Assembly: GCA_041662625.1 (NCBI GenBank)
Contig: JBAZSB010000001.1
Span: 374,467 to 438,466, forward strand
DNA length: 64,000 nucleotides
Reading direction: 5' to 3'
Source of the DNA: Patescibacteria group bacterium
GTDB taxonomy: Bacteria > Patescibacteriota > Patescibacteriia > Buchananbacterales > UBA6539
The first letter of the stretch is position 1. Every line of letters starts with the position of its first letter. The position numbers and the translations under genes are program-made. Below the pieces are notes generated by a model that ran no database searches, had not been told where the DNA came from, and saw only the letters and a program-made list of their open reading frames with translations. Shown piece after piece: positions 11,654 through 44,597 of the stretch.

Positions 11654-11756
11654 ATTTTAGGTCTTAATCTTTAGAAAGACAAAGTACTCGTCTTCCAAAA
11701 CTTTAACAAAATATTGCTCATCAATCAAGTCCCCCCTACGACCATAATTTTATCTT

Positions 11757-13451
11757 CTACTCATCCCGGCCCATCATTTTTAACAAATTGGTTAATTTAT
11801 ACTCCAATTTCTCATACTCGGTCTGGGAATGATGAATTTTATAATCAGGTAATAAAATAAAAGTGTCATCAATGTTAACCAGAAGATTTCTTTCTAAATT
11901 TAAATTATCAATAAAAAACTCCATATCACTAGACAAAATATAAATAGTATCTTTTTTATATAAACCCCTTTTCGCATCTTCAGTTTCTTTTTCAATAACA
12001 TTATTAAGTCCCTTGATCGGCCGAGCAAAATATCCATTATTTACAGTCAGATGATTTTGGGCGGCATACAAGGCAAAATCCATGTAATTTCGGTGATGGA
12101 TAACCGGTATAAATGAAATGTGCTTATAATCTTTAGCTAGACCTTCCCAGTCACGAGAAATTATGTGGTTTGACCATTTTTTTCCTTCAAATACTTTGCC
12201 CCTTTCCACCAGCATATTACTTAAATCAAATAATTGAAAAAATACTGCTAAAAGCAATATGGCCAAAGCTATCTTATACTTAGTCACTTTCAAAATATAA
12301 AAAGATAATAATAACAGCAGATAAAAAACCGGCCAAAATAATCTGCCCGAAGAACGCACAGCGCCTAAAATATTATTGGCAAAAAACTCAGGTAGTTGAA
12401 CATTGATTATTACCTTTGAATTAAACGTAACGACATTGCTGATTGCCAACAAAGTCAGAATTAAAGCGACTACGATGATCGGCCAATTTCTTTGAATAAC
12501 TTTAAGTAATATCTTTCTTTTAACCGCCGCCAGAAACGATAAAACTAACAAAAATATAATACCAACTCCTAAATAGTTAAAGCCTTCAGCCTGATATTCA
12601 GTGATTGGCAGACTATGAATTATGCGGGAAAAAACCAACGGATTAACTAAGGCATTAAGATTCATCGAAAACTGACCATAACCGCCTCCAAGGGCAAAAT
12701 CACCCATAAAATAACCTAGGGCGTATGCAATTAATGATATTAAAATTATTTGGCTAGCAAAAAAAATAAAAGCCTTCGATAGTTTAATTTTTTTATAAAC
12801 CAATAAAAGCATAATGATATCGGCAAACACCAAAAAAACATTCATAAAAAACAAATAGGGATGAACTAACAAAGATACCACCAATAATAAACTCCAATAA
12901 AACCACTGAATCTTTTCGTGAGGTCTTAATAATAACCAGAGGGCCGATAAAATCAACCATTGGCCGCCCAAGGCAAGATGACCGCCAATTCTAAACAACA
13001 TAATTGGACTCAATAAAAAAAGGACTGACCCCAAAATAGCCAACGTCTTTTTCTTAATAAAATTTTCTATAAGCAAATAGCCAAATATCGCCTGCAGGAT
13101 AAAACAAATGAGCATCCAAATACCAAAGTACTGAAATTGCCCAGGCAAAACGCTGCTGAGTAACTTTAATGGCATTGCCAGTATTGGTATTGAGTCAGTA
13201 AATATTACTGGGACACCCACCGGATAGCCATAATTATTTGCCACACCAATTGGAAAAGACCAATCAGAGTAACGATACATTTCCCAACCAACATAATACT
13301 GGACTAAATCTGGCTCATCGGTCGCCAATAACCATGCGTAGTATTTCGGATTTAAAACTTCAGAATACAAAATCAAAAAAAATATTAAGCCAAGGAGTAA
13401 AGAAATCAATATTGCAGCAATGTTTTTTTGCTTATTTAATCCTGGGGGCAT
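11757..13451 (-). CDS. polytopic membrane protein, GT-C-like glycosyltransferase candidate
   Basis: 564 aa with more than 10 predicted TM helices. It lies in a glycan-biosynthesis context. Confidence 0.45.
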   Translation of the reverse strand: MPPGLNKQKNIAAILISLLLGLIFFLILYSEVLNPKYYAWLLATDEPDLVQYYVGWEMYRYSDWSFPIGVANNYGYPVGVPVIFTDSIPILAMPLKLLSSVLPGQFQYFGIWMLICFILQAIFGYLLIENFIKKKTLAILGSVLFLLSPIMLFRIGGHLALGGQWLILSALWLLLRPHEKIQWFYWSLLLVVSLLVHPYLFFMNVFLVFADIIMLLLVYKKIKLSKAFIFFASQIILISLIAYALGYFMGDFALGGGYGQFSMNLNALVNPLVFSRIIHSLPITEYQAEGFNYLGVGIIFLLVLSFLAAVKRKILLKVIQRNWPIIVVALILTLLAISNVVTFNSKVIINVQLPEFFANNILGAVRSSGRLFWPVFYLLLLLSFYILKVTKYKIALAILLLAVFFQLFDLSNMLVERGKVFEGKKWSNHIISRDWEGLAKDYKHISFIPVIHHRNYMDFALYAAQNHLTVNNGYFARPIKGLNNVIEKETEDAKRGLYKKDTIYILSSDMEFFIDNLNLERNLLVNIDDTFILLPDYKIHHSQTEYEKLEYKLTNLLKMMGRDE

Positions 13452-22652: not shown

Positions 22653-22683
22653 AAGAGAATATTACACACTTTATTGTGTATTA

Positions 22684-22716
22684 CAAAAAAAGTATGATAT
22701 AAGCCATACTTTTTTT
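22684..22716 (+). terminator. bidirectional intrinsic terminator (A7-agtatg-loop-catact-T7)
   Basis: Perfect 12-13-bp inverted repeat aaaaaaagtatg / catacttttttt, 32 nt after the stop of ORF 20559..22652. Confidence 0.5.
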
Positions 22717-22755
22717 CATTTTGTCTTATTTTAGCTAAAAATATGCCTTTTACCC

Positions 22756-22783
22756 TTGACAAAGCCAAAAATAATCCTACAAT
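22756..22783 (+). promoter_or_regulatory. sigma70-type promoter TTGACA-N16-TACAAT
   Basis: ttgaca at 22756-22761 and tacaat at 22778-22783. GGGAGG Shine-Dalgarno at 22826-22831. Confidence 0.55.
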
Positions 22784-22843
22784 GAATATTCACTAGCCCC
22801 TTATCAAGGGCACTTTCGTAACAAAGGGAGGTACAAGAAAATC

Positions 22844-23200
22844 ATGGACATAAATGAGTTGCTGCAGGAAATCGGCGAGTCACAACCAGGGCTTGCTAAA
22901 AGATTCAGGCAAGTCTTTACGACGGTACAAGAAGGTCTCAAGGATAGGTGTCCAAATTCGCCAGAATTAGCCTGGGCCATCAGGGCCATTCTCCCTCGGG
23001 AAGAAGCGAAACCGGGCCAAAGTGAAAAAGATCGACCGCTAGTCAAAGGCCAAAACCTTTGGGCTTTGCTAGTCGAAATCTATCCCAGCCACGCCACCAA
23101 CTCGCCTGAACTCGATATCAGCGCCCTACTCAACCGGTGGCTACCAATGATTGGCGCCTTGATCCACATCAATCGAAAGCGATCAAAGCCAATCTGCTGA
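22844..23200 (+). CDS. hypothetical 118-aa protein (island ORF A), GC-rich, no recognisable family
   Basis: ORF with Shine-Dalgarno, own promoter and own terminator. Composition (about 55-60% GC) contrasts with the host (about 30%). Confidence 0.5.
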   Translation: MDINELLQEIGESQPGLAKRFRQVFTTVQEGLKDRCPNSPELAWAIRAILPREEAKPGQSEKDRPLVKGQNLWALLVEIYPSHATNSPELDISALLNRWLPMIGALIHINRKRSKPIC

Positions 23201-23217
23201 TAATGCTTCTAGTGATT

Positions 23218-23251
23218 CCACCAAGACATTGATCTTGGTGGCTCTTTTTTA
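23218..23251 (+). terminator. intrinsic terminator ccaccaaga-cattga-tcttggtgg + CTCTTTTTT
   Basis: 9-bp GC-rich stem plus U-tract 18 nt after the ORF A stop. Confidence 0.7.
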
Positions 23252-23282
23252 TTCTGGTTTGAATTCTGGTTCTATCTTTAAG

Positions 23283-23311
23283 TTGACAATTTCCTATAAT
23301 TAAGCTATAAT
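23283..23311 (+). promoter_or_regulatory. perfect-consensus sigma70 promoter TTGACA-N17-TATAAT
   Basis: ttgaca at 23283-23288, 17-nt spacer, tataat at 23306-23311. Confidence 0.65.
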
Positions 23312-23317
23312 AAAAAA

Positions 23318-23354
23318 TCAAGACCCATCGTCTTGACCCAGCAATGATTTGCTG
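23318..23354 (+). promoter_or_regulatory. two operator-like palindromes at/after the predicted TSS: tcaagac-ccatc-gtcttga and cagcaa-tgat-ttgctg
   Basis: Inverted repeats at 23318-23336 and 23339-23354, between the -10 and the Shine-Dalgarno. Confidence 0.5.
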
Positions 23355-23396
23355 GTAGTTCCAAACCCGGCAAGCAACAAAGCGAAGGAGGTTCCA

Positions 23397-23570
23397 ATGC
23401 AAGGTTGGTATTTGGTAGTTGATGTAACACCGGAGCAACTTGAGGCGATGCGAGGCAAACTCGAACCGGTTATTCGGGCCGCGCTCGAAGAACTCCACCT
23501 CACGCCGCGCGTGGATGACACGAATGCAGCGGGTAAACCCGGACTCAACATCAACTTCGTCACCGGCTGA
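23397..23570 (+). CDS. hypothetical 57-aa protein (island ORF B)
   Basis: AAGGAGG Shine-Dalgarno at 23385-23391, 6 nt before ATG 23397. The ORF-track start at 23349 lacks a Shine-Dalgarno. Confidence 0.5.
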   Translation: MQGWYLVVDVTPEQLEAMRGKLEPVIRAALEELHLTPRVDDTNAAGKPGLNINFVTG

Positions 23571-23598
23571 TTCGTCATCGGCTAAAAGGAGGCACCCT

Positions 23599-23940
23599 AT
23601 GCAAAAGCTAAAGCGCACATTCGACGGATTAGCGGCAGGTTGCCCCTGGCTACCCAGTCTCCTCCATGACCTGCCAGGAGCCTTTACCCGGGAAAGCGAA
23701 GAAATCCTCTGCGACGGAATTGTTGCTCTGACCAGCGAAGACCCCCAAGACCATTTGGTCGGGGATGATCTCTGGAATGAGTTACATCGACAGTTCCCCG
23801 CCGGCGACGACATCAATTTCCTCGGCCTGGTAGGCGCACTGGAAGAAAAACTCAGCTACATCAAGGCTATGGCAGCCAGATGTGCTGATGCGGCTGCCGA
23901 TGCAGAACCTGAGGAGACTACCGTCGTTCTCGTCGGCTGA
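23599..23940 (+). CDS. hypothetical acidic 113-aa protein (island ORF C)
   Basis: AAAGGAGG at 23583-23591 precedes ATG 23599. It is 28 nt downstream of ORF B (bicistronic). D/E-rich. The ORF-track 166-aa version from 23440 overlaps ORF B out of frame and lacks a Shine-Dalgarno. Confidence 0.5.
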   Translation: MQKLKRTFDGLAAGCPWLPSLLHDLPGAFTRESEEILCDGIVALTSEDPQDHLVGDDLWNELHRQFPAGDDINFLGLVGALEEKLSYIKAMAARCADAAADAEPEETTVVLVG

Positions 23941-23979
23941 GACAGCCCCCTGCCCTCCCTTGGCACTACTGCCTAAGGG

Positions 23980-24014
23980 GACGACCATGCACTCGCGTGG
24001 TCGTCATTTTCTTT
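23980..24014 (+). terminator. intrinsic terminator gacgacca-tgcactcgcg-tggtcgtc + ATTTTCTTT
   Basis: 8-bp stem plus T-rich tail 40 nt after the ORF C stop. It abuts the stop codon of the convergent host gene at 24013. Confidence 0.65.
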
Positions 24015-24597
24015 AGCAACATTTTTTCTGAAAAGCCAAAGCTAACTGGCCGGCTTCGGTCATATCCTTACCCAAAGCAATAAAACCGTGATTTTTCAAA
24101 ACTAAAAAATTATTATTTTCTAAAATAGACAAAGCTTGTCTGACTAATTCGAGGCTGCCATAAGGGGCTTCTTTTTTGGTTTGCGGGATATTTAATTTTT
24201 TCGCCTGGGCTAAAATTTGCTGACAGTGGCCATGAAAGATGGCATTAACTTCCACTCGCTTCTGATAAAGGGCAAAATGAAGCATCGTTTCCGAAGATGG
24301 CTCCATTACCCCTTCAGCTTGAATAATTTTTCTTTCAAAATCACAATTAAAGATTTTGACAAAAGATTGATTAGTTAAATCTTCTTTGGCTTTTAGGCCT
24401 GCGCCGGTAATAATAAAAATGTTTTCTCCTTCTTTTAGGCGAAAACTGAGATTCCCGGCTGAGCAACCATCGTAAACCGGCGCCAAATTAGACTGGTGAA
24501 AATCCTGGCACCATTTGATTAGTTCAATAATTCTTGGATCTTGGGGCGCTTGCTTTTTTATAAATTCGGTTTTAAATTTTACACCGGGATACACCAT
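24013..24597 (-). CDS. class II aldolase/adducin family protein (MtnB-like dehydratase/aldolase)
   Basis: 194 aa with HGH-type metal-binding motifs (AIFHGHC). Adjacent to an e2B2-family isomerase. Confidence 0.6.
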   Translation of the reverse strand: MVYPGVKFKTEFIKKQAPQDPRIIELIKWCQDFHQSNLAPVYDGCSAGNLSFRLKEGENIFIITGAGLKAKEDLTNQSFVKIFNCDFERKIIQAEGVMEPSSETMLHFALYQKRVEVNAIFHGHCQQILAQAKKLNIPQTKKEAPYGSLELVRQALSILENNNFLVLKNHGFIALGKDMTEAGQLALAFQKKCC

Positions 24598-24630
24598 AGA
24601 AATTAGGTTGTAGGTAGTAGGTTGTAGCAG

Positions 24631-25680
24631 TTAGAATAATTTGCTGATTGCTTTTTCATTCGCTTTGATTATTCCTTTCTCGGTAATGATACCAGTGATA
24701 TATTTTGCCGGGGTAACATCAAAAGCCGGATTAATTGCCTCTGACCCCGGTGAACAAACTAAAATTCTTTCAATTTTTCCGGCCGAGTTTGGTCCGGTCT
24801 GGTATAAAACTTCGTCTTCACTGCGTTGTTCAATGGGAATTTCTGTCCCACTTGGGCAATTCCGATCAATCGTTGAAGTTGGCGCGGCAACATAAAATGG
24901 CACGTCATAAACTTTAGCTACAATCGCTTTTTCCAAAGTCCCGATTTTATTGGCCACGTCGCCATTTCGGGCAATCCGGTCAGCACCAACAATCATTAAG
25001 TCCACTTTATGCTGGCTCATCAGATAAGCCCCGGCATTATCCGGAATAATCTTATGAGGCACGCCTTCATTTTTTAATTCCCAGGCTGTCAATCGTGCCC
25101 CCTGGCTGCGCGGCCGGGTTTCGTCAGTGTAGACAAAGATTTTTTTGCCTGCCCGGTGAGCCGTGTAAATTGGTGCCAAAGCACTGCCCCAGTCCACAAA
25201 GGCCAGCCAGCCGGCATTACAATGGGTTTCAATCTGAAAGCCGTCTTTAATTAATTCATTGCCATACTCCCCTATTTTTCTGCCATTTTCAGCATTTTCT
25301 AAAGCCAGCCTTTGCGCTTCATTCAAAGCCGCTTCAGTCGGCTGAGCGGAATTTTTTCCGGCTTGGTAAACCATTTTAGTCGCATAAAACAAATCATGAG
25401 CCGTGGGCCGGGTGGCTTCAATATCCGCTTTTGCTTTTTCTATAAATTGCCAAAAATTATCAGCTGGTGCTTCCAGAAATGCTTGAGCCAAGGCATAGCC
25501 AGCGGTTGCGCCGATGGCTCCGGCTCCCCTGACAATCATAGTATTAATCGCCTGACAACTTGCCAAATAATTTTTGGCTTCAAAAATCTTGAATTCAAAA
25601 GGTAATAAATTTTGCTCAATCAAAAAAACGGATGAACCCGCCATCCAGACTGTTTGATAATCTTTGCCTGCTACCTTCAT
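24631..25680 (-). CDS. mtnA: eIF-2B alpha/beta/delta-like isomerase (methylthioribose-1-phosphate or ribose-1,5-bisphosphate isomerase)
   Basis: RGAGAIGATAGYALAQA and CNAGWLAFVDWGSALAPIYTA motifs of the e2B2/MtnA family. Confidence 0.7.
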   Translation of the reverse strand: MKVAGKDYQTVWMAGSSVFLIEQNLLPFEFKIFEAKNYLASCQAINTMIVRGAGAIGATAGYALAQAFLEAPADNFWQFIEKAKADIEATRPTAHDLFYATKMVYQAGKNSAQPTEAALNEAQRLALENAENGRKIGEYGNELIKDGFQIETHCNAGWLAFVDWGSALAPIYTAHRAGKKIFVYTDETRPRSQGARLTAWELKNEGVPHKIIPDNAGAYLMSQHKVDLMIVGADRIARNGDVANKIGTLEKAIVAKVYDVPFYVAAPTSTIDRNCPSGTEIPIEQRSEDEVLYQTGPNSAGKIERILVCSPGSEAINPAFDVTPAKYITGIITEKGIIKANEKAISKLF

Positions 25681-25682
25681 AG

Positions 25683-26852: not shown

Positions 26853-27167
26853 ATTTCCAGTAAATGATTGAAAACTATACCATAAACTATGGCTAGTACC
26901 CTGCTTTTTAATTTTAGCATTTTTTAAGACTTTCTGGAAAATCTTTTGGTAATATAAGTATCAAAAAACATAGCGTTTTTTTAAGTTATTTGTTAGGATA
27001 TAACTAGGTTATAGGCGCTATGTTGGCAAGTTAATATTAGCTTATTTTAAATAAAAAAGTCAACAAGTTCGCATAAAAGAAGTTGTCGGAAATATTGTTC
27101 TTAAAAATAAAATACTTTGGGGAAGTTACTCTGCTTAATGGGTCAATGGATCAAAAGGAGATAAAAC

Positions 27168-27296
27168 ATGCTGTTAGAAGAAGAACAAAAAAAAGCCGAC
27201 CGACTGGATCGATTGCGTAGGATTTGCGAGAGAGTAAGAAAAGAAGTATACGAAGAAGTATGGTGCAGAGCTCATCATGTACACTGTTGTCCATAG
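27168..27296 (+). CDS. 42-aa Cys/His-rich peptide (MLLEEEQKKADRLDRLRRICERVRKEVYEEVWCRAHHVHCCP)
   Basis: AAGGAG at 27155-27160, 7 nt before the ATG. Too short for the ORF track. Followed by hairpin 27318-27348. Confidence 0.3.
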   Translation: MLLEEEQKKADRLDRLRRICERVRKEVYEEVWCRAHHVHCCP

Positions 27297-27317
27297 CTTT
27301 TCTATGGTACCTTTGTT

Positions 27318-27348
27318 GGGGAGAACGGAGAACTAAGTCGTTTTCCCC
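27318..27348 (+). terminator. 10-bp hairpin ggggagaacg / cgttttcccc, candidate terminator of the small peptide gene
   Basis: Stem with one G-U pair; the downstream T-tract is weak (tattttgtt). Confidence 0.35.
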
Positions 27349-27413
27349 ACTTCCCCAAAGTATTTTGTTAAAAAGGATAACAATACATCCAACAACACGT
27401 TTTATCTGGTTTC

Positions 27414-27433
27414 GCAAAAGAGATATAATCTGT
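27414..27433. repeat. left 20-bp terminal inverted repeat gcaaaagagatataatctgt
   Basis: Exact reverse complement of 27950-27969. Confidence 0.8.
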
Positions 27434-27486
27434 ACAAAGCAAAGACCCCTGAACAAGCGAGTCTTTACAAGAAACGCGTCCAGGGG

Positions 27487-27768
27487 TTAGGAGTTGTGTG
27501 GATCATGCCGCAGGGCATTATCTAGTGCAAGCCGGCTTTCCGTCAAAGGTCCACCCATGCGGGCAACTTCCTGTCTGATTTCGTTAACCAGTTCTTCGGG
27601 TAACCCTTGCACCGTTCGCATAATGTCGTAGAGGGCCTCTGGTGTTGCTCCCTCATAAGAGCATAACCTGCGAACAGTTTCGGCTTGTTTGGCAACGAGC
27701 GCGTGCCGAAATATCAAGCTGTGCTCAGCTAGTTTTCGGCCAAGTGCCTTCAATACTCTTCTAAACAT
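27487..27768 (-). CDS. hypothetical 93-aa protein, GC-rich (about 53%), inside the IR-bounded segment
   Basis: AAAGGAGA Shine-Dalgarno 5 nt before the ATG (minus strand). A stem-loop (7-bp stem ccctggg / cccaggg style, large loop) plus T-rich tail follows the stop. Confidence 0.45.
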   Translation of the reverse strand: MFRRVLKALGRKLAEHSLIFRHALVAKQAETVRRLCSYEGATPEALYDIMRTVQGLPEELVNEIRQEVARMGGPLTESRLALDNALRHDPHNS

Positions 27769-27841
27769 CGTCGTCTCCTTTACCGTAGATTCATTTTTTG
27801 CCTTACTTGACCATAACTAGCTACAACTATCGTGAAATTAT

Positions 27842-27869
27842 TACCAATTATGGTTAGATAAGGTATCTG
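27842..27869 (-). promoter_or_regulatory. direct repeats TTATCTAAC (x2, 19-bp register) with an embedded tagata-agg-tatct palindrome in the leader of ORF 27487..27768
   Basis: gttagataa at 27842-27850 and 27861-27869 (plus strand). TTGACA/TTGACT hexamers lie upstream (minus strand) at about 27893-27915. Confidence 0.35.
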
Positions 27870-27949
27870 AAGTTAGATAAATAACAATAGCATATTTATA
27901 TATTTTTGTCAATAAGAAATAGTCAAAAAATACTAAATTTATCCAAAAA

Positions 27950-27969
27950 ACAGATTATATCTCTTTTGC
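27950..27969. repeat. right 20-bp terminal inverted repeat acagattatatctcttttgc
   Basis: Exact reverse complement of 27414-27433. Confidence 0.8.
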
Positions 27970-27983
27970 TCCACCCAAATTCT

Positions 27984-28034
27984 GCACATATTTCTGCGGT
28001 GACCTCCGGTCAATTTTACCACAGAAATATGTGT
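27984..28034. other. 17-bp imperfect inverted repeat (gcacatatttctgcggt ... accacagaaatatgtgt) with a 17-nt loop
   Basis: One mismatch and one wobble. Immediately outside the right IR. Confidence 0.4.
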
Positions 28035-28107
28035 AGAACTTCAGATAAAACGGTAATGTTGTATTTAATCGAGAAAGGATAAACATAATTAAATAAATAT
28101 TACCTAT

Positions 28108-33337: not shown

Positions 33338-33715
33338 ATGACTGAAGTAAATCAAATCTACAGATGTAATATCTGCGGCAATATTGTCCAGGTCTTACAT
33401 GATGGCGTCGGACAATTGGTCTGTTGCGGTCAACCGATGGAATTGCTCAAAGAAAACACCGTTGACGCCAGCCGGGAAAAGCACGTGCCAGTCATTGAAA
33501 AAACCGCCAATGGCTATAAGGTCAAAGTCGGCTCAGTCCCCCATCCGATGGAAGAAAAGCATTATATTGAGTGGATTCAGCTAATTGTCGGCAATATGGC
33601 CTATCACCGCTATCTCAAGCCTGGCGACGCGCCTGAGGCCGAATTCTGTGTCCCCAAGGCCGGCGAGGTCATTGCTCGGGAATACTGCAACTTGCACGGG
33701 CTTTGGAAGTCGTAA
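33338..33715 (+). CDS. desulfoferrodoxin (2Fe superoxide reductase)
   Basis: N-terminal desulforedoxin CNICGN...CCG. SOR centre EKHVPVIE...H...C. Confidence 0.8.
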
Positions 33716-35118: not shown

Positions 35119-35179
35119 GAAGGAATTAGGAATTAGGAATTAGGAATTAGGAATTCTACCCTGATTCATAATTCCTAAT

Positions 35180-35515
35180 TCATGATTCTGGGTCTTCTTT
35201 ATCTTCCAAGGCTGTTCGGCGCACGACCTTCGTTATATCCCGGTCAATTTTTTCTAGCCTGACAATAATTTTGAAAACCAGAAAGAACAAGACAATGACG
35301 GAAAGATAAACCAATAAATCGGCACCGCGTTCCACGCCAAGCCATTGCGAAACAGCATCGGTCTTTTTTGGCACTAACGTGGCAGCAGCAACCAGAAACC
35401 AAAAAATCAGCCAAATCACCAATTCCCGACTAGTAATATCACCTTTACGGAAACGTAAAAACGTCCGCCAAAAAACAAACACAATAAACAAAATTATAAT
35501 AATTTTTATAATCAT
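35180..35515 (-). CDS. DUF2304-like small membrane protein
   Basis: 111 aa, 3 TM. Typical partner of GT2 DPM-synthase-like genes. Confidence 0.5.
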   Translation of the reverse strand: MIIKIIIILFIVFVFWRTFLRFRKGDITSRELVIWLIFWFLVAAATLVPKKTDAVSQWLGVERGADLLVYLSVIVLFFLVFKIIVRLEKIDRDITKVVRRTALEDKEDPES

Positions 35516-43196: not shown

Positions 43197-44597
43197 TTGT
43201 CACTTGTGGCCAAAAATTCAGTGCTTGGTGCTAAAAAGTACTTCTTGATTTTAGGGGATATATTTATCCTTTATTTTTCTCTTTGGTTAACTCTCATAAT
43301 TAGATATGGGGACAAATATGACAATGAACTTTGGCTCAGGCATCTTTGGCCGTTCACTCTTGTCTTTCTAGTCTGGTTAGTAATTTTTTATATTGATGAT
43401 TTATATGAACTGAACCTCCGCCAAGGGCGAGCTAATATTTTAAGCCGGATAATCAGAGATATCTTAATTGGTGGCATCCTAGCTATTATCTTCTTCTATT
43501 TAGGCGAAAATCGCCTCTTTGCCATCAAACCGCAAACAGTACTCTTAATTAATGGCGGTATTGCTGTTATTTCAATTTATCTTTGGCATATTGCTTTCGA
43601 CTCTTTCATTAAATTATCAAAGACTAATAGTTTAGTGATTATCGGCTTTAATCCACTAATTCAAGAAGTTATTGAGGAAATTAAAAAACGACCGCAACTT
43701 GGCTTCCAGCTCAAACATATAATTATCGAGGATAATAATATAAATATTCCTGACAACTTAAAAAGTGTCACTATCTATGACCACTTCGAAAATTTAAAAA
43801 ATATCTGCCTCAACAATAAAATTAATACCATCGTTTCTAACATTCATCCGAGAGACAACAATAGTTTGTCAAAAAGCTTATTTGATTGTTTGCCCCTACA
43901 AATAAACTTTTTCGATATTGCTAATTTTTACGAAAAAATCACTGGCAAAATTCCTGTAACAACGATCGAACAAATTTGGTTTCTGGAAAATTTAGAGGAA
44001 AGCAACAAAAAATTCTACGAAAGAACAAAAAGGGTTTTTGATCTTATTTTGTCGTTTATCCTTTTTACTTTATCACTCCCCTTCATTCCGCTGATTGCTT
44101 TGATTATAAAATTAAGTAGTAAGGGAAAAGTATTTTTTACCCAAATCAGAGTTGGAAAAAATGGCCAAACTTTCAAGGTGATTAAATTTCGAACAATGTT
44201 TGAAAATGCCGAAACTAACGGCCCCCAATGGGCCACAACAAATGATTCCCGCATAACTAAAGTTGGCAGATTACTCCGCAAAACCAGAATTGATGAAATC
44301 CCTCAGCTGCTAAACATAATTAAAAATGAAATGAGTATAATCGGTCCCCGCCCCGAAAGGCCGGAATTTATTGAACAATTGCAAAATCAAATCCCCTTTT
44401 ATAAAGAAAGGCTTTTAATCAAACCGGGTTTAACTGGTTGGGCTCAGGTAGCCGGACCGTCCTATGGCGGCTCCAAAGAGGAAAGCCTGGAAAAACTCCA
44501 GTATGATCTATTTTATATCAAAAATCGCTCCCTGACTTTAGATTTAAGTATTCTCCTTAAAACCATCAGGATTGTTTTGAGTCGACAAGGACAATAA
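43197..44597 (+). CDS. polyprenyl-phosphate glycosyl-1-phosphate transferase (WbaP/bacterial sugar transferase)
   Basis: C-terminal sugar-transferase domain (RVFDLILS...KFRTM...GPRPERPEF). The start codon is uncertain: TTG at 43197 and no ATG nearby. Confidence 0.8.
   Translation: MSLVAKNSVLGAKKYFLILGDIFILYFSLWLTLIIRYGDKYDNELWLRHLWPFTLVFLVWLVIFYIDDLYELNLRQGRANILSRIIRDILIGGILAIIFFYLGENRLFAIKPQTVLLINGGIAVISIYLWHIAFDSFIKLSKTNSLVIIGFNPLIQEVIEEIKKRPQLGFQLKHIIIEDNNINIPDNLKSVTIYDHFENLKNICLNNKINTIVSNIHPRDNNSLSKSLFDCLPLQINFFDIANFYEKITGKIPVTTIEQIWFLENLEESNKKFYERTKRVFDLILSFILFTLSLPFIPLIALIIKLSSKGKVFFTQIRVGKNGQTFKVIKFRTMFENAETNGPQWATTNDSRITKVGRLLRKTRIDEIPQLLNIIKNEMSIIGPRPERPEFIEQLQNQIPFYKERLLIKPGLTGWAQVAGPSYGGSKEESLEKLQYDLFYIKNRSLTLDLSILLKTIRIVLSRQGQ

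What the first reader, a model, noticed from the sequence alone, without database searches (positions are those of the whole stretch)
27130..28040. Second anomalous locus: convergent small-gene pair with strong Shine-Dalgarno sites, hairpins and a GC-rich ORF in the GT4 / membrane-protein intergenic gap
This roughly 1.25-kb gap (26853-28107) between divergent host genes is far longer than other spacers in the window. It holds a 42-aa Cys/His-rich peptide gene (+) and a 93-aa ORF (-) of about 53% GC. Each has a near-consensus AAGGAG Shine-Dalgarno and a downstream stem-loop. Their style matches the 22.7-24.0 kb cassette rather than the host. Together the two loci may be parts of one acquired system or two independent insertions from a similar donor.
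Basis: seen in the sequence. Interest (0 to 1): 0.8.

Follow-up and report, generated by a model that had tools for sequence, protein, structure and literature searches.

The report
Self-expressing small-gene cassette inside palindromic repeat
The long gap in this groundwater CPR (Candidatus Buchananbacteria) genome holds foreign-looking small genes, one of them a promoter-gene-terminator cassette with swappable cargo, bracketed by perfect inverted repeats and sitting inside a conserved hairpin-forming repeat. It looks like a new small mobile gene carrier, and what its proteins do is unknown.

Summary
The 1,255-bp gap (26853-28107) is the longest stretch without a host gene in the window. It holds a 42-aa ORF (+) and a 93-aa ORF (-, 50.7% GC against 37% for host genes). 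Each has AAGGAG 6-7 nt before ATG, a signal that no host gene start in the window has.

p93, with its sigma-70-type promoter, leader and terminator, is bracketed by a perfect 20-bp inverted repeat. That repeat is nested in a 671-bp copy (27392-28062) of a structured repeat module. Seven copies of the module in four Buchananbacteria genomes show strong covariation.

A second metagenome carries the same frame, promoter and terminator (86-100% identical) in a different genomic context, with an unrelated 115-aa gene as cargo. A third context has that cargo unit without the frame, flanked by 20-nt direct repeats.

Both window ORFs are orphans. p93 is probably a real gene; p42 is doubtful.

Best reading: horizontally acquired, modular, transposase-less expression cassettes, like mobile insertion cassettes or phage morons, lodged in a REPIN-like element. 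There is no evidence for inversion or for a link to the 22.7-kb cassette beyond shared style. Protein function is unknown.

The parts
27034..27063 (-). Predicted native promoter of GT4 (TTGACT-18-TAATAT). It marks the left edge of the inserted material.
   Evidence: a 32-nt stretch here resembles L010 677-708.
27064..27090 (.). Degenerate copy of the M repeat. It is the outer arm of the palindrome around p42 and pairs with 27379-27405.
   Evidence: I4; nhmmer E 0.17.
27082..27126 (.). Left arm of the 45-nt imperfect inverted repeat around p42. Its perfect 18-nt core is 27109-27126.
   Evidence: The fold of 27075-27415 has z -4.95.
27152..27178 (+). M-like repeat copy, 15 of 19 identical to the M core (about 21 of 27 when extended by eye). 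It contains the p42 Shine-Dalgarno site (27155-27160), the ATG and the first codons.
   Evidence: (I6).
27168..27296 (+). p42: a 42-aa orphan ORF, a charged helix followed by a Cys/His-rich tail. Its coding status is uncertain.
   Evidence: only itself in the database; ORF length not significant.
27291..27360 (+). Two hairpins downstream of p42 (27291-27307 and 27311-27360).
   Evidence: z -3.3.
27349..27393 (.). Right arm of the 45-nt inverted repeat around p42. Its perfect core is 27349-27366.
27392..27413 (-). 3' part of the structured module, read on the minus strand: AAC, the 11-nt outer-helix strand (27408-27398), then TGTTGT (27397-27392). This is the left end of the 671-bp block shared with L022/L025.
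   Evidence: (95% identical).
27414..27433 (.). Left arm of the perfect 20-bp inverted repeat (GCAAAAGAGATATAATCTGT).
   Evidence: All four arms, two in the window and two in L025, are identical.
27434..27487 (-). Intrinsic terminator of p93: hairpin 27445-27487 followed by UCUUUGCUUUGU. The sequence is homologous in the window, L025 and L024.
27487..27768 (-). p93: a 93-aa orphan ORF, 50.7% GC, pI 9.0, with five predicted helices. This is the cargo of the cassette.
27769..27883 (-). Leader of p93, with a hairpin (27801-27863) and AAGGAG at 27780-27775. It is unrelated to the L025 leader.
   Evidence: (z -3.2).
27884..27912 (-). Sigma-70-type promoter: TTGACA, 17 nt, TATTGT with an upstream TG. 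It is 86% identical to L025 and also homologous in L024.
27950..27969 (.). Right arm of the perfect 20-bp inverted repeat.
27970..27981 (-). Conserved linker, AATTTGGGTGGA on the minus strand. It is also present after the hairpins of uninterrupted modules in L025.
   Evidence: D5; 100% identical.
27977..28041 (-). Inner hairpin of the module: 24-nt arms and a conserved 17-nt loop with a TGACC-GGA-GGTCA apex.
   Evidence: z -7.8 and -8.3; all 5 differences from L025 fall in the stem, as 2 compensatory pairs and 1 repair.
28042..28062 (-). 5' part of the module, read on the minus strand: ACAACA (28062-28057), TTAC bulge, then the 11-nt outer-helix strand (28052-28042). This is the right end of the shared block.
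   Evidence: (I22).

Best explanation
The gap is about 1 kb of acquired, repeat-framed DNA (27064-28062) inserted between the divergent promoters of two host genes in a Candidatus Buchananbacteria (CPR) genome.

Its main component is a self-contained expression cassette on the minus strand: a sigma-70-type promoter, a structured leader, a strong Shine-Dalgarno site, a 93-aa GC-rich orphan gene and an intrinsic terminator. A perfect 20-bp inverted repeat brackets this cassette. No transposase or recombinase was found among the window's genes that were screened.

The cassette sits inside one copy of a conserved hairpin-forming repeat module that resembles REPIN or MITE elements and occurs in several Buchananbacteria genomes.

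The cassette is modular. The promoter, terminator and frame are kept while the transcribed cargo (leader plus ORF) is exchanged. The promoter-cargo-terminator unit also occurs on its own elsewhere.

Shown: the anatomy, the mosaic relatives in other contexts, the covariation of the module, and the alien composition and translation signals.

Inferred: the unit expresses a small cytoplasmic helical protein autonomously, insulated by the flanking hairpins. It was moved in trans by an unidentified enzyme that recognises the inverted repeats or hairpins, as in mobile insertion cassettes (MICs), and/or by homologous recombination at the conserved promoter, terminator and repeat sequences.

The neighbouring p42 region is an expanded junction palindrome of the same repeat family. 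Its 42-aa ORF may or may not be a gene.
For: 1. Inverted repeats and hairpins are far beyond chance.

2. L022/L025 comes from a different metagenome, and its flanking genes are unrelated to the window. It shares the window's 27392-27487 and 27888-28062 at 86-100% identity, ending exactly at the module ends. The leader and ORF are unrelated, and the cargo there is a different 115-aa gene.

3. L024 carries that 115-aa cargo (79% aa identity, dN/dS 0.45, no indels) with the same promoter, terminator and a leader hairpin kept by compensatory and G-U changes. It lacks the frame and is flanked by a 20-nt direct repeat, 19 of 20 identical.

4. Seven module copies in four genomes: the 11-bp outer helix is paired in 77 of 77 cells, and 7 of its 11 pairs change on both sides. 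Overall 95% of cells are paired, and 0 of 500 shuffles reach the observed values. In the window this helix spans the whole cassette.

5. Foreignness: p93 and p42 are orphans and absent from 10 relatives. GC and codon log-likelihood lie 5-6 sd from host genes. A strong SD is found at cassette gene starts only. Across the window and 10 relatives, 16 of 18 GC-rich genes have an SD against 12 of 244 low-GC genes.

6. No transposase or recombinase domain was found among the window's genes that were screened.

7. A GGA trinucleotide flanks the 20-mer-bounded element on both sides in L025 (GGA and GAA in the window). It is a possible 2-3 bp target duplication.
Against: - Only two independent copies of the framed cassette, and three of the promoter/terminator unit, are known. 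An exact-match scan of 241 million metagenome records with the 20-mer found just two contigs, so this is not a prolific element.
- No cognate transposase is known, the target duplication is weak (3 nt, one shared insertion event), and no empty site was found.
- The promoter, transcription start and terminator are predictions.
- p93 has no homologue, so purifying selection cannot be shown for it. Strain variants have no SNPs in the gap, which is uninformative.
- The module segments used for covariation counting were extracted by eye around conserved anchors.
- No viral, phage or plasmid relatives were found that could name a donor.
Confidence: 0.6

Rival explanations
1. No dedicated mobility. 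The inverted repeats are simply neighbouring copies of an abundant intergenic palindromic repeat family in opposite orientation. The cassette and its cargo were shuffled only by ordinary homologous or illegitimate recombination at conserved promoter, terminator and repeat sequences, as happens at module boundaries in phage genomes.
For: - In L025 every intergenic region holds a module, so host genes are trivially flanked by inverted repeats made of adjacent module ends.
- Cargo breakpoints coincide with the -10 box and the stop codon, next to conserved stretches that could serve as recombination substrates.
- L024 and L012 show 20- and 44-nt direct duplications, as expected from recombination-based insertion.
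Against: - The 20-mer inverted repeat is not part of the module family. It is perfect in both genomes while neighbouring non-coding sequence has diverged by 5-30%.
- It ends sharply and is flanked by GGA on both sides in L025.
- The block shared with L025 ends exactly at the module ends.
Confidence: 0.22
2. Inverton: the 20-bp inverted repeats are sites for an invertase that flips the 516-bp segment. This would switch outward-reading promoters toward mem104 or GT4 as phase variation in a surface-glycan locus.
For: - A perfect 20-bp inverted repeat 516 bp apart encloses promoters: a strong one on the minus strand and a weaker plus-strand match at 27906-27934.
- The locus lies in a large cell-envelope glycan gene region.
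Against: - Five assemblies from four or five samples, and the diverged L025 copy, all have the same orientation relative to the frame.
- No invertase or recombinase was found among the window's genes that were screened.
- The promoter, gene and terminator all lie inside the segment, so flipping would not switch p93.
- The interior is replaced, not inverted, in the relative.
Confidence: 0.07
3. The GC-rich stretch is a structured non-coding RNA or cis-regulatory element, and the ORFs are incidental.
For: - High GC in a long intergenic region of an AT-rich genome is a classic signature of non-coding RNA.
- The frame is a covarying structure.
- p42 is not statistically supported as an ORF, and its start signals lie in a repeat copy.
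Against: - No Rfam family matches at any threshold.
- The p93 ORF region folds no better than shuffles on the sense strand (z -1.5).
- The GC1 > GC3 > GC2 pattern, the perfect SD and the ORF filling the island exactly from leader to terminator all point to coding.
- The equivalent cargo in L025/L024 evolves as a protein: dN/dS 0.45 with no frameshifts.
Confidence: 0.06
4. A two-gene functional system, such as toxin-antitoxin or a small protein with an antisense-regulated partner, formed by the convergent p42/p93 pair and possibly linked with the 22.7-kb cassette.
For: Convergent arrangement, small size and shared expression style.
Against: - No overlap of the two transcription units.
- p42 is hydrophilic, unlike type I toxins.
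- No hits in PADLOC, Pfam, NCBIfam or PHROGs.
- In L025 and L024 the p93-type unit occurs without any p42 counterpart.
- No sequence is shared with the 22.7-kb cassette.
Confidence: 0.05

Closest known systems
Mobile insertion cassettes (MIC231 of Bacillus cereus; mic-qnrD and mic-qnrS2)
   Same: A short element bracketed by inverted repeats, with no transposase gene inside or nearby. It carries a passenger gene with its own promoter and ribosome-binding site. The ends are conserved and the cargo is modular. There is a possible 2-3 bp target duplication. The definition is taken from PMC3913671.
   Different: No cognate insertion sequence or transposase is known and no transposition has been shown. 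The target duplication is weak. The element is nested in a second, structured palindromic repeat. The cargo exchange boundaries are the promoter and terminator rather than the terminal repeats. The host is a CPR bacterium.
Phage morons
   Same: An autonomous promoter-gene-terminator unit whose GC content differs from its neighbours, added between resident genes. The definition is taken from PMC3594210. The L024 copy is exactly such a bare unit.
   Different: It is not in a prophage. The window is a glycan-biosynthesis region with no phage genes, and there are no matches in IMG/VR or in phage records. Morons have no inverted-repeat frame.
REP / REPIN / MITE-type intergenic palindromic repeats
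   Same: The frame is a 75-145 nt hairpin-forming module made of two inverted short repeats. It is multi-copy in intergenic regions (four in 3 kb of L025), and pairing is kept by compensatory changes. In 4 of 4 genomes the strand carrying the G-T wobbles is the G-rich strand.
   Different: There is no sequence similarity to known REP elements. No RAYT or IS200/IS605 transposase was seen. Two copies carry a complete gene cassette in their interior.
Invertons (invertible promoter segments)
   Same: Perfect inverted repeats about 0.5 kb apart enclose a promoter, in a surface-structure locus.
   Different: There is no invertase, no flipped variant in any assembly, and the regulated gene lies inside the segment.
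Integron cassettes and Acinetobacter pdif modules
   Same: Small single-gene modules delimited by imperfect palindromic sites, found in different contexts with different cargo. The sites alternate in orientation along an array.
   Different: There is no integrase and no attI, and the cassettes bring their own promoter. The M repeat does not fit a dif site beyond chance, and its two arm types differ by a 3-4 nt bulge.

Membership tests
Mobile insertion cassette (MIC) | Bracketed by two inverted repeats | tested here: met
   Perfect 20-bp inverted repeat at 27414-27433 / 27950-27969, identical in L025.
Mobile insertion cassette (MIC) | No transposase gene inside or nearby; carries passenger gene(s) | tested here: met
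   The only interior gene is p93. No transposase or recombinase Pfam domain was found among the window's genes that were screened.
Mobile insertion cassette (MIC) | Target-site duplication flanking the inverted repeats | tested here: inconclusive
   GGA on both sides in L025; GGA and GAA in the window. This is 3 nt from a single shared insertion event.
Mobile insertion cassette (MIC) | Ends match those of an insertion sequence whose transposase mobilises it in trans | not testable with these tools
   No related insertion sequence was found in the sequence held. The full 922-kb genome could not be read.
Phage moron | Independent transcription unit with its own promoter and terminator | tested here: met
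   Predicted promoter at 27912-27884 and terminator at 27445-27487. Both are conserved in L025 and L024. These are predictions only.
Phage moron | GC content differs from surrounding genes | tested here: met
   50.7% against 37.4% (sd 5.0) for host genes.
Phage moron | Located in a phage or prophage genome | tested here: not met
   Neighbours are glycan-biosynthesis and metabolic genes. No PHROG, IMG/VR or phage-record matches.
REPIN / REP-type repeat (for the frame) | Two inverted short repeats forming a hairpin, multi-copy in intergenic DNA | tested here: met
   Seven copies in four genomes. The outer helix is 100% paired and 7 of its 11 pairs covary.
REPIN / REP-type repeat (for the frame) | Associated RAYT (IS200/IS605-like) transposase in the genome | not testable with these tools
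   Only 64 kb of the genome, plus 3-21 kb loci of the relatives, are available.
Inverton | Both orientations present in the population | tested here: not met
   All assemblies are colinear, and the L025 copy has the same orientation. Read-level data could not be tested.
Inverton | Site-specific invertase nearby | tested here: not met
   None found among the window's genes that were screened.
Integron cassette / CALIN | attC site (R''-L''...L'-R' with RYYYAAC / GTTRRRY) at the 3' end of a promoterless ORF; integrase and attI | tested here: not met
   The cassette has its own promoter. The repeats flank the whole unit. The AAC...GTT ends do not fit the R-box consensus (read directly). There is no integrase.
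Xer/dif module (pdif, IMEX) | 28-bp dif-like 11-6-11 sites at module ends | tested here: not met
   The best dif match (27066, 16-17 of 22) is within the range of shuffled sequence (15-17).
Any Rfam RNA family | Covariance-model match | tested here: not met
   No match for the window, the gap, or the uninterrupted modules in L010, L011 and L025.

The most novel reading that the evidence does not exclude
Buchananbacteria, and perhaps other CPR bacteria, may possess an undescribed gene-capture and expression platform. Structured REPIN-like modules would serve as landing pads for inverted-repeat-bounded promoter-leader-ORF-terminator cassettes whose cargo is exchanged between conserved promoter and terminator modules. 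Functionally this would resemble an integron, but without an integrase. The cargo would come from a private pool of GC-rich orphan genes that depend on a Shine-Dalgarno site, inside hosts whose own genes do not use such sites.
Probability: 0.15. Interest if true: 0.85.

Novelty: new variant of a known kind. Interest (0 to 1): 0.6.

Why it matters
CPR bacteria have tiny genomes, and little is known about their mobile elements. This locus shows three things.

1. A small, transposase-less cassette carries its own expression signals, has interchangeable cargo, and occurs in at least three genomic contexts.
2. A structured intergenic repeat family with clear covariation is absent from Rfam.
3. There is a sharp two-class split of genes. 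Host genes are AT-rich and lack a Shine-Dalgarno site. Island genes are GC-rich and have a strong one. The split holds across eleven related genomes.

If general, this defines how orphan small genes enter and spread in these reduced genomes. It also raises a directly testable question: how are SD-led genes translated in a host that otherwise does not use SD sites?

Tried and rejected
Protein identity
- Pfam, PHROGs, PADLOC and NCBIfam gave nothing for p42, p93, the three genes of the 22.7-kb cassette, or the L025 cargo.
- A full HMMER search of 1.84 billion representatives with p93 found only a fragment of itself and spurious TPR hits.
- AlphaFold2 gave a low-confidence five-helix model (pLDDT 63). 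Foldseek against the PDB and a PDB sequence search gave nothing real, only designed helical repeats.

Donor search
- IMG/VR scans with p93, c1_113, the L025 cargo, the 20-mer, the terminator and the hairpin loop found nothing.
- blastn against phage and plasmid records found nothing.

dif/Xer idea
- One degenerate M copy resembles dif (16-17 of 22), but shuffled sequence reaches the same score, so this was rejected.

Other ideas
- attC/integron: the R-box consensus is not met and the cassette has a promoter.
- Promoter inside the 20-mer (it contains TATAAT): no acceptable -35 element, so dropped.
- Genome-wide gene-flanking inverted repeats in the window: other inverted repeats are AT-rich chance matches. 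Only the gap stands out.
- Empty site or strain lacking the cassette: all contigs carrying mem104 or GT4 have the same arrangement.
- SNP-based constraint: strain variants have no changes in the gap.
- An M-like repeat, the 20-mer, or the promoter/terminator modules in the 22.7-kb cassette: none.
Full report
**Source and setting.** Relatives found with the flanking glycosyltransferase place the window in Candidatus Buchananbacteria (Patescibacteria/CPR). Ten loci share 63-78% aa identity. The window has 36% GC and consists almost entirely of cell-envelope and glycan-biosynthesis genes. No transposase, integrase or invertase domain was found among the genes screened. Rfam and tRNA scans of the whole window are empty.

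**The observation.**
- The gap 26853-28107 (1,255 bp) is real and is the longest stretch without a host gene. A seemingly similar gap at 43 kb is closed by a TTG-start gene.
- p42 (27168-27296, +) and p93 (27487-27768, -) exist as described. Each has AAGGAG 6-7 nt upstream of ATG and stem-loops downstream.
- p93 has 50.7% GC with GC1 > GC3 > GC2. That is the same pattern as the three genes of the 22.7-24.0 kb cassette. Host genes average 37.4% (sd 5.0).
On both strands of the 64 kb, a strong SD followed by a start codon and an ORF of at least 30 codons occurs eight times. Four are the cassette genes and four lie inside long host genes. No host gene start has one.
- Over the window and ten relatives, 16 of 18 GC-rich genes have an SD against 12 of 244 low-GC genes.

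- A perfect 20-bp inverted repeat (27414-27433 / 27950-27969) brackets p93 together with its predicted promoter (TTGACA-17-TATTGT with TG, 27912-27884), its 110-nt leader and its terminator (27445-27487).
- Outside the 20-mers lie an 11-nt perfect inverted repeat (27398-27408 / 28042-28052) and a 65-nt hairpin (27977-28041, z about -8).
- p42 is enclosed by a 45-nt imperfect inverted repeat with an 18-nt perfect core.

**Relatives of the element.**
- The single metagenome scan, run with the 20-mer, found the window's own strain and one other contig, L022, which L025 extends.
- L022/L025 matches window 27392-27487 and 27888-28062, and the match ends exactly at the outer repeat. By segment, the 20-mers and the linker are 100% identical, the outer repeats 95%, the hairpin 92%, the -35 to -10 region 86% and the terminator about 70%.
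- Everything from the -10 box to the stop codon is unrelated. L025 has a different leader and a different 115-aa ORF. The genes flanking the block in L025 have no counterpart in the window.
- All five differences in the hairpin lie in its stem: two compensatory pairs and one change that repairs a mismatch. The loop is unchanged.
- The 115-aa cargo has one homologue (79% aa identity) on L024. That contig is syntenic with another part of the window (about 70% nt identity in the GT and VanZ genes). On L024 the same promoter, leader hairpin (kept through compensatory and G-U changes on the sense strand), ORF and terminator are present. The frame is absent, and a 20-nt direct repeat (19 of 20 identical) flanks the unit.
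- The two cargo copies differ at 16% of nucleotides, with no indels and dN/dS 0.45. This type of cargo therefore evolves as a protein.
- The locus is thus a mosaic at three levels: a frame, a promoter-cargo-terminator unit, and the cargo itself.

**The frame is a structured repeat.**
- The outer repeat (called M here) belongs to a family with at least eight copies in the 3-kb L025 contig and four in the window's gap.
- A profile search and a structure-based scan of 362 kb found the same architecture in two GTDB Buchananbacteria, L010 and L011. The architecture is: ACAACG, a 3-4 nt bulge, an 11-nt strand, an inner hairpin starting A-N-G-T-T, an optional linker, AAC, the complementary 11-nt strand, then TGTT(G/A)T.
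- Seven copies were compared on a pseudo-alignment. Segments were taken around conserved anchors and joined by spacers, so there is some risk of ascertainment bias.
  - The 11-bp outer helix is paired in all 77 cells, and 7 of its 11 pairs change on both sides.
  - Overall 95% of cells pair, and 12 of 25 pairs change on both sides.
  - No shuffle out of 500 reaches these values, and slid controls collapse.
- Two positions are G-U (G-T) in nearly all copies. This singles out one strand, the minus strand in the window, which is the sense strand of p93. In all four genomes that strand is the G-rich one (n = 4, suggestive only).
- No Rfam family matches the uninterrupted copies.
- In uninterrupted modules the two strands of the outer helix are 50-120 nt apart. 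In the window and in one L025 copy they are 633-734 nt apart, because the 20-mer-bounded cassette lies between the linker and the 3' strand.
- The inverted repeats around host genes in L025, and largely those around p42, follow simply from adjacent module ends facing each other.

**p42.** The ORF is an orphan and its length is not significant. It lies on the strand opposite to the module. Its SD, ATG and first codons fall inside an M-like repeat copy, where CC to GG and CG to CA changes create AAGGAG and ATG. I put the chance that it is a real gene at roughly 35-40%. For p93 I put it at about 80%. The reasons for p93 are that the ORF fills the GC island exactly between leader and terminator, the SD is perfect, the length test gives p about 0.016, the ORF sequence shows no excess RNA structure (z -1.5), and the equivalent cargo elsewhere evolves as a protein.

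**Function.** No library, structure or sequence search gives a lead for p93, which is basic (pI 9.0), hydrophilic, has five predicted helices and has no signal peptide or membrane segment. The same is true for p42.
- The mechanism I commit to concerns the element rather than the protein.
- It is an autonomous expression cassette delivered by horizontal transfer into a hairpin repeat.
- It is mobilised in trans, or by recombination at its conserved ends.
- Its hairpins insulate it from the two divergent host promoters.

**Relation to the 22.7-kb cassette.** The style is the same: GC-rich ORFs, strong SD sites, consensus promoters and terminators. Codon log-likelihood also places p93 and p42 with the island genes. 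There is no shared sequence, repeat or protein family. That other site, between GT4 and a 697-aa membrane protein, is a hot spot with different GC-rich content in almost every relative. Its content includes homologues of the 113-aa gene in L007 and L009, and a dapB-like gene flanked by a 44-nt direct repeat in L012. Two independent acquisitions from the same kind of gene pool fits best.

**Comparison with known systems.**
- The cassette works like a mobile insertion cassette: an inverted-repeat bracket, no transposase, a self-expressed passenger gene (definition from PMC3913671). It also works like a phage moron: its own promoter and terminator, and deviant GC (PMC3594210).
- It fails membership of the moron class because it is not in a phage. 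Membership of the MIC class cannot be tested, because no cognate insertion sequence is known and the target duplication is doubtful.
- The frame works like a REPIN or MITE. Insertion sequences that target palindromic repeats are known; from my own knowledge, IS110-family elements such as IS621 insert into REP sequences. Insertion into such a module is therefore plausible.
- The inverton, integron, dif-module, non-coding RNA and toxin-antitoxin readings were each tested as far as possible and are disfavoured.

**Verdict.** The finding is real, and its general interpretation as acquired DNA is right. It is a new variant of known kinds of small non-autonomous elements, in a lineage where such elements are essentially undescribed. 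The evidence rests on few copies, and the proteins remain functionally blank.

Noticed in passing
whole window; L004-L013: Host genes essentially lack Shine-Dalgarno sites, and the sequence upstream of their starts is A/T-rich. GC-rich small genes almost always have a strong one: 16 of 18 GC-rich genes against 12 of 244 low-GC genes over eleven genomes. This is a two-class translation-signal split.
   Followed up: partly
L004-L012, between GT4 and the 697-aa membrane protein (window equivalent 22653-25682): This is a hot spot with different content in nearly every relative (30-1100 bp), often GC-rich small ORFs with an SD. The window has additionally gained IF-2B-like and aldolase genes there. 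Homologues of the 113-aa cassette gene (35% aa identity) sit at this site in L007 and L009.
   Followed up: partly
L012 1698-1741 and 2757-2800: A 44-nt direct repeat (98% identical, containing a terminator) flanks a 1-kb insertion. The insertion carries a GC-rich (52%), SD-led dapB-like gene.
   Followed up: partly
L006 11370-11386 / 11744-11760: A 17-nt inverted repeat (94% complementary) flanks a GC-rich 69-aa Cys-rich ORF. The ORF has a homologue in L004 (11508-11744).
   Followed up: no
L004 3234-3614; L006 6735-7094 and 7102-7503: A family of GC-rich, SD-led proteins of 119-133 aa of unknown function. In L006 they are tandem paralogues.
   Followed up: no
window 27998-28012 and 27967-27981: On the plus strand, the loop of the module hairpin and the linker contain CCTCC and CTCCACCC, which resemble an anti-Shine-Dalgarno sequence. 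The minus strand reads GGAGG and GGGTGGAG. The relevance to SD-led cassette genes is unknown.
   Followed up: no
window 33338-33715: A GC-rich (49.5%) desulfoferrodoxin gene has no Shine-Dalgarno site. This is one of the two GC-rich genes without an SD in the 16-of-18 count (the other is a 155-aa ORF in L004), so high GC alone does not imply the cassette style.
   Followed up: no
window 35123-35188: Tandem GAATTAGG repeats form a 29-nt-arm hairpin between two genes.
   Followed up: no
L004 11246-11456; L007 11810-12042: L004 has tandem repeats of about 130 bp (a 37-nt unit 97% identical). L007 has a repeated TGTCATCCTGA motif. Both lie in the GT4/membrane-protein hot spot of those relatives.
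   Followed up: no
window 43197-44597: A 466-aa sugar transferase starts with TTG. Gene callers restricted to ATG starts would leave a false 1.1-kb gap here.
   Followed up: yes
L024 1348-1368 and 1976-1996: A 20-nt direct repeat (GA[T/A]TTTAGGGTCGGTTTTTT, 19 of 20 identical) flanks the frameless promoter-cargo-terminator unit downstream of a VanZ gene.
   Followed up: partly
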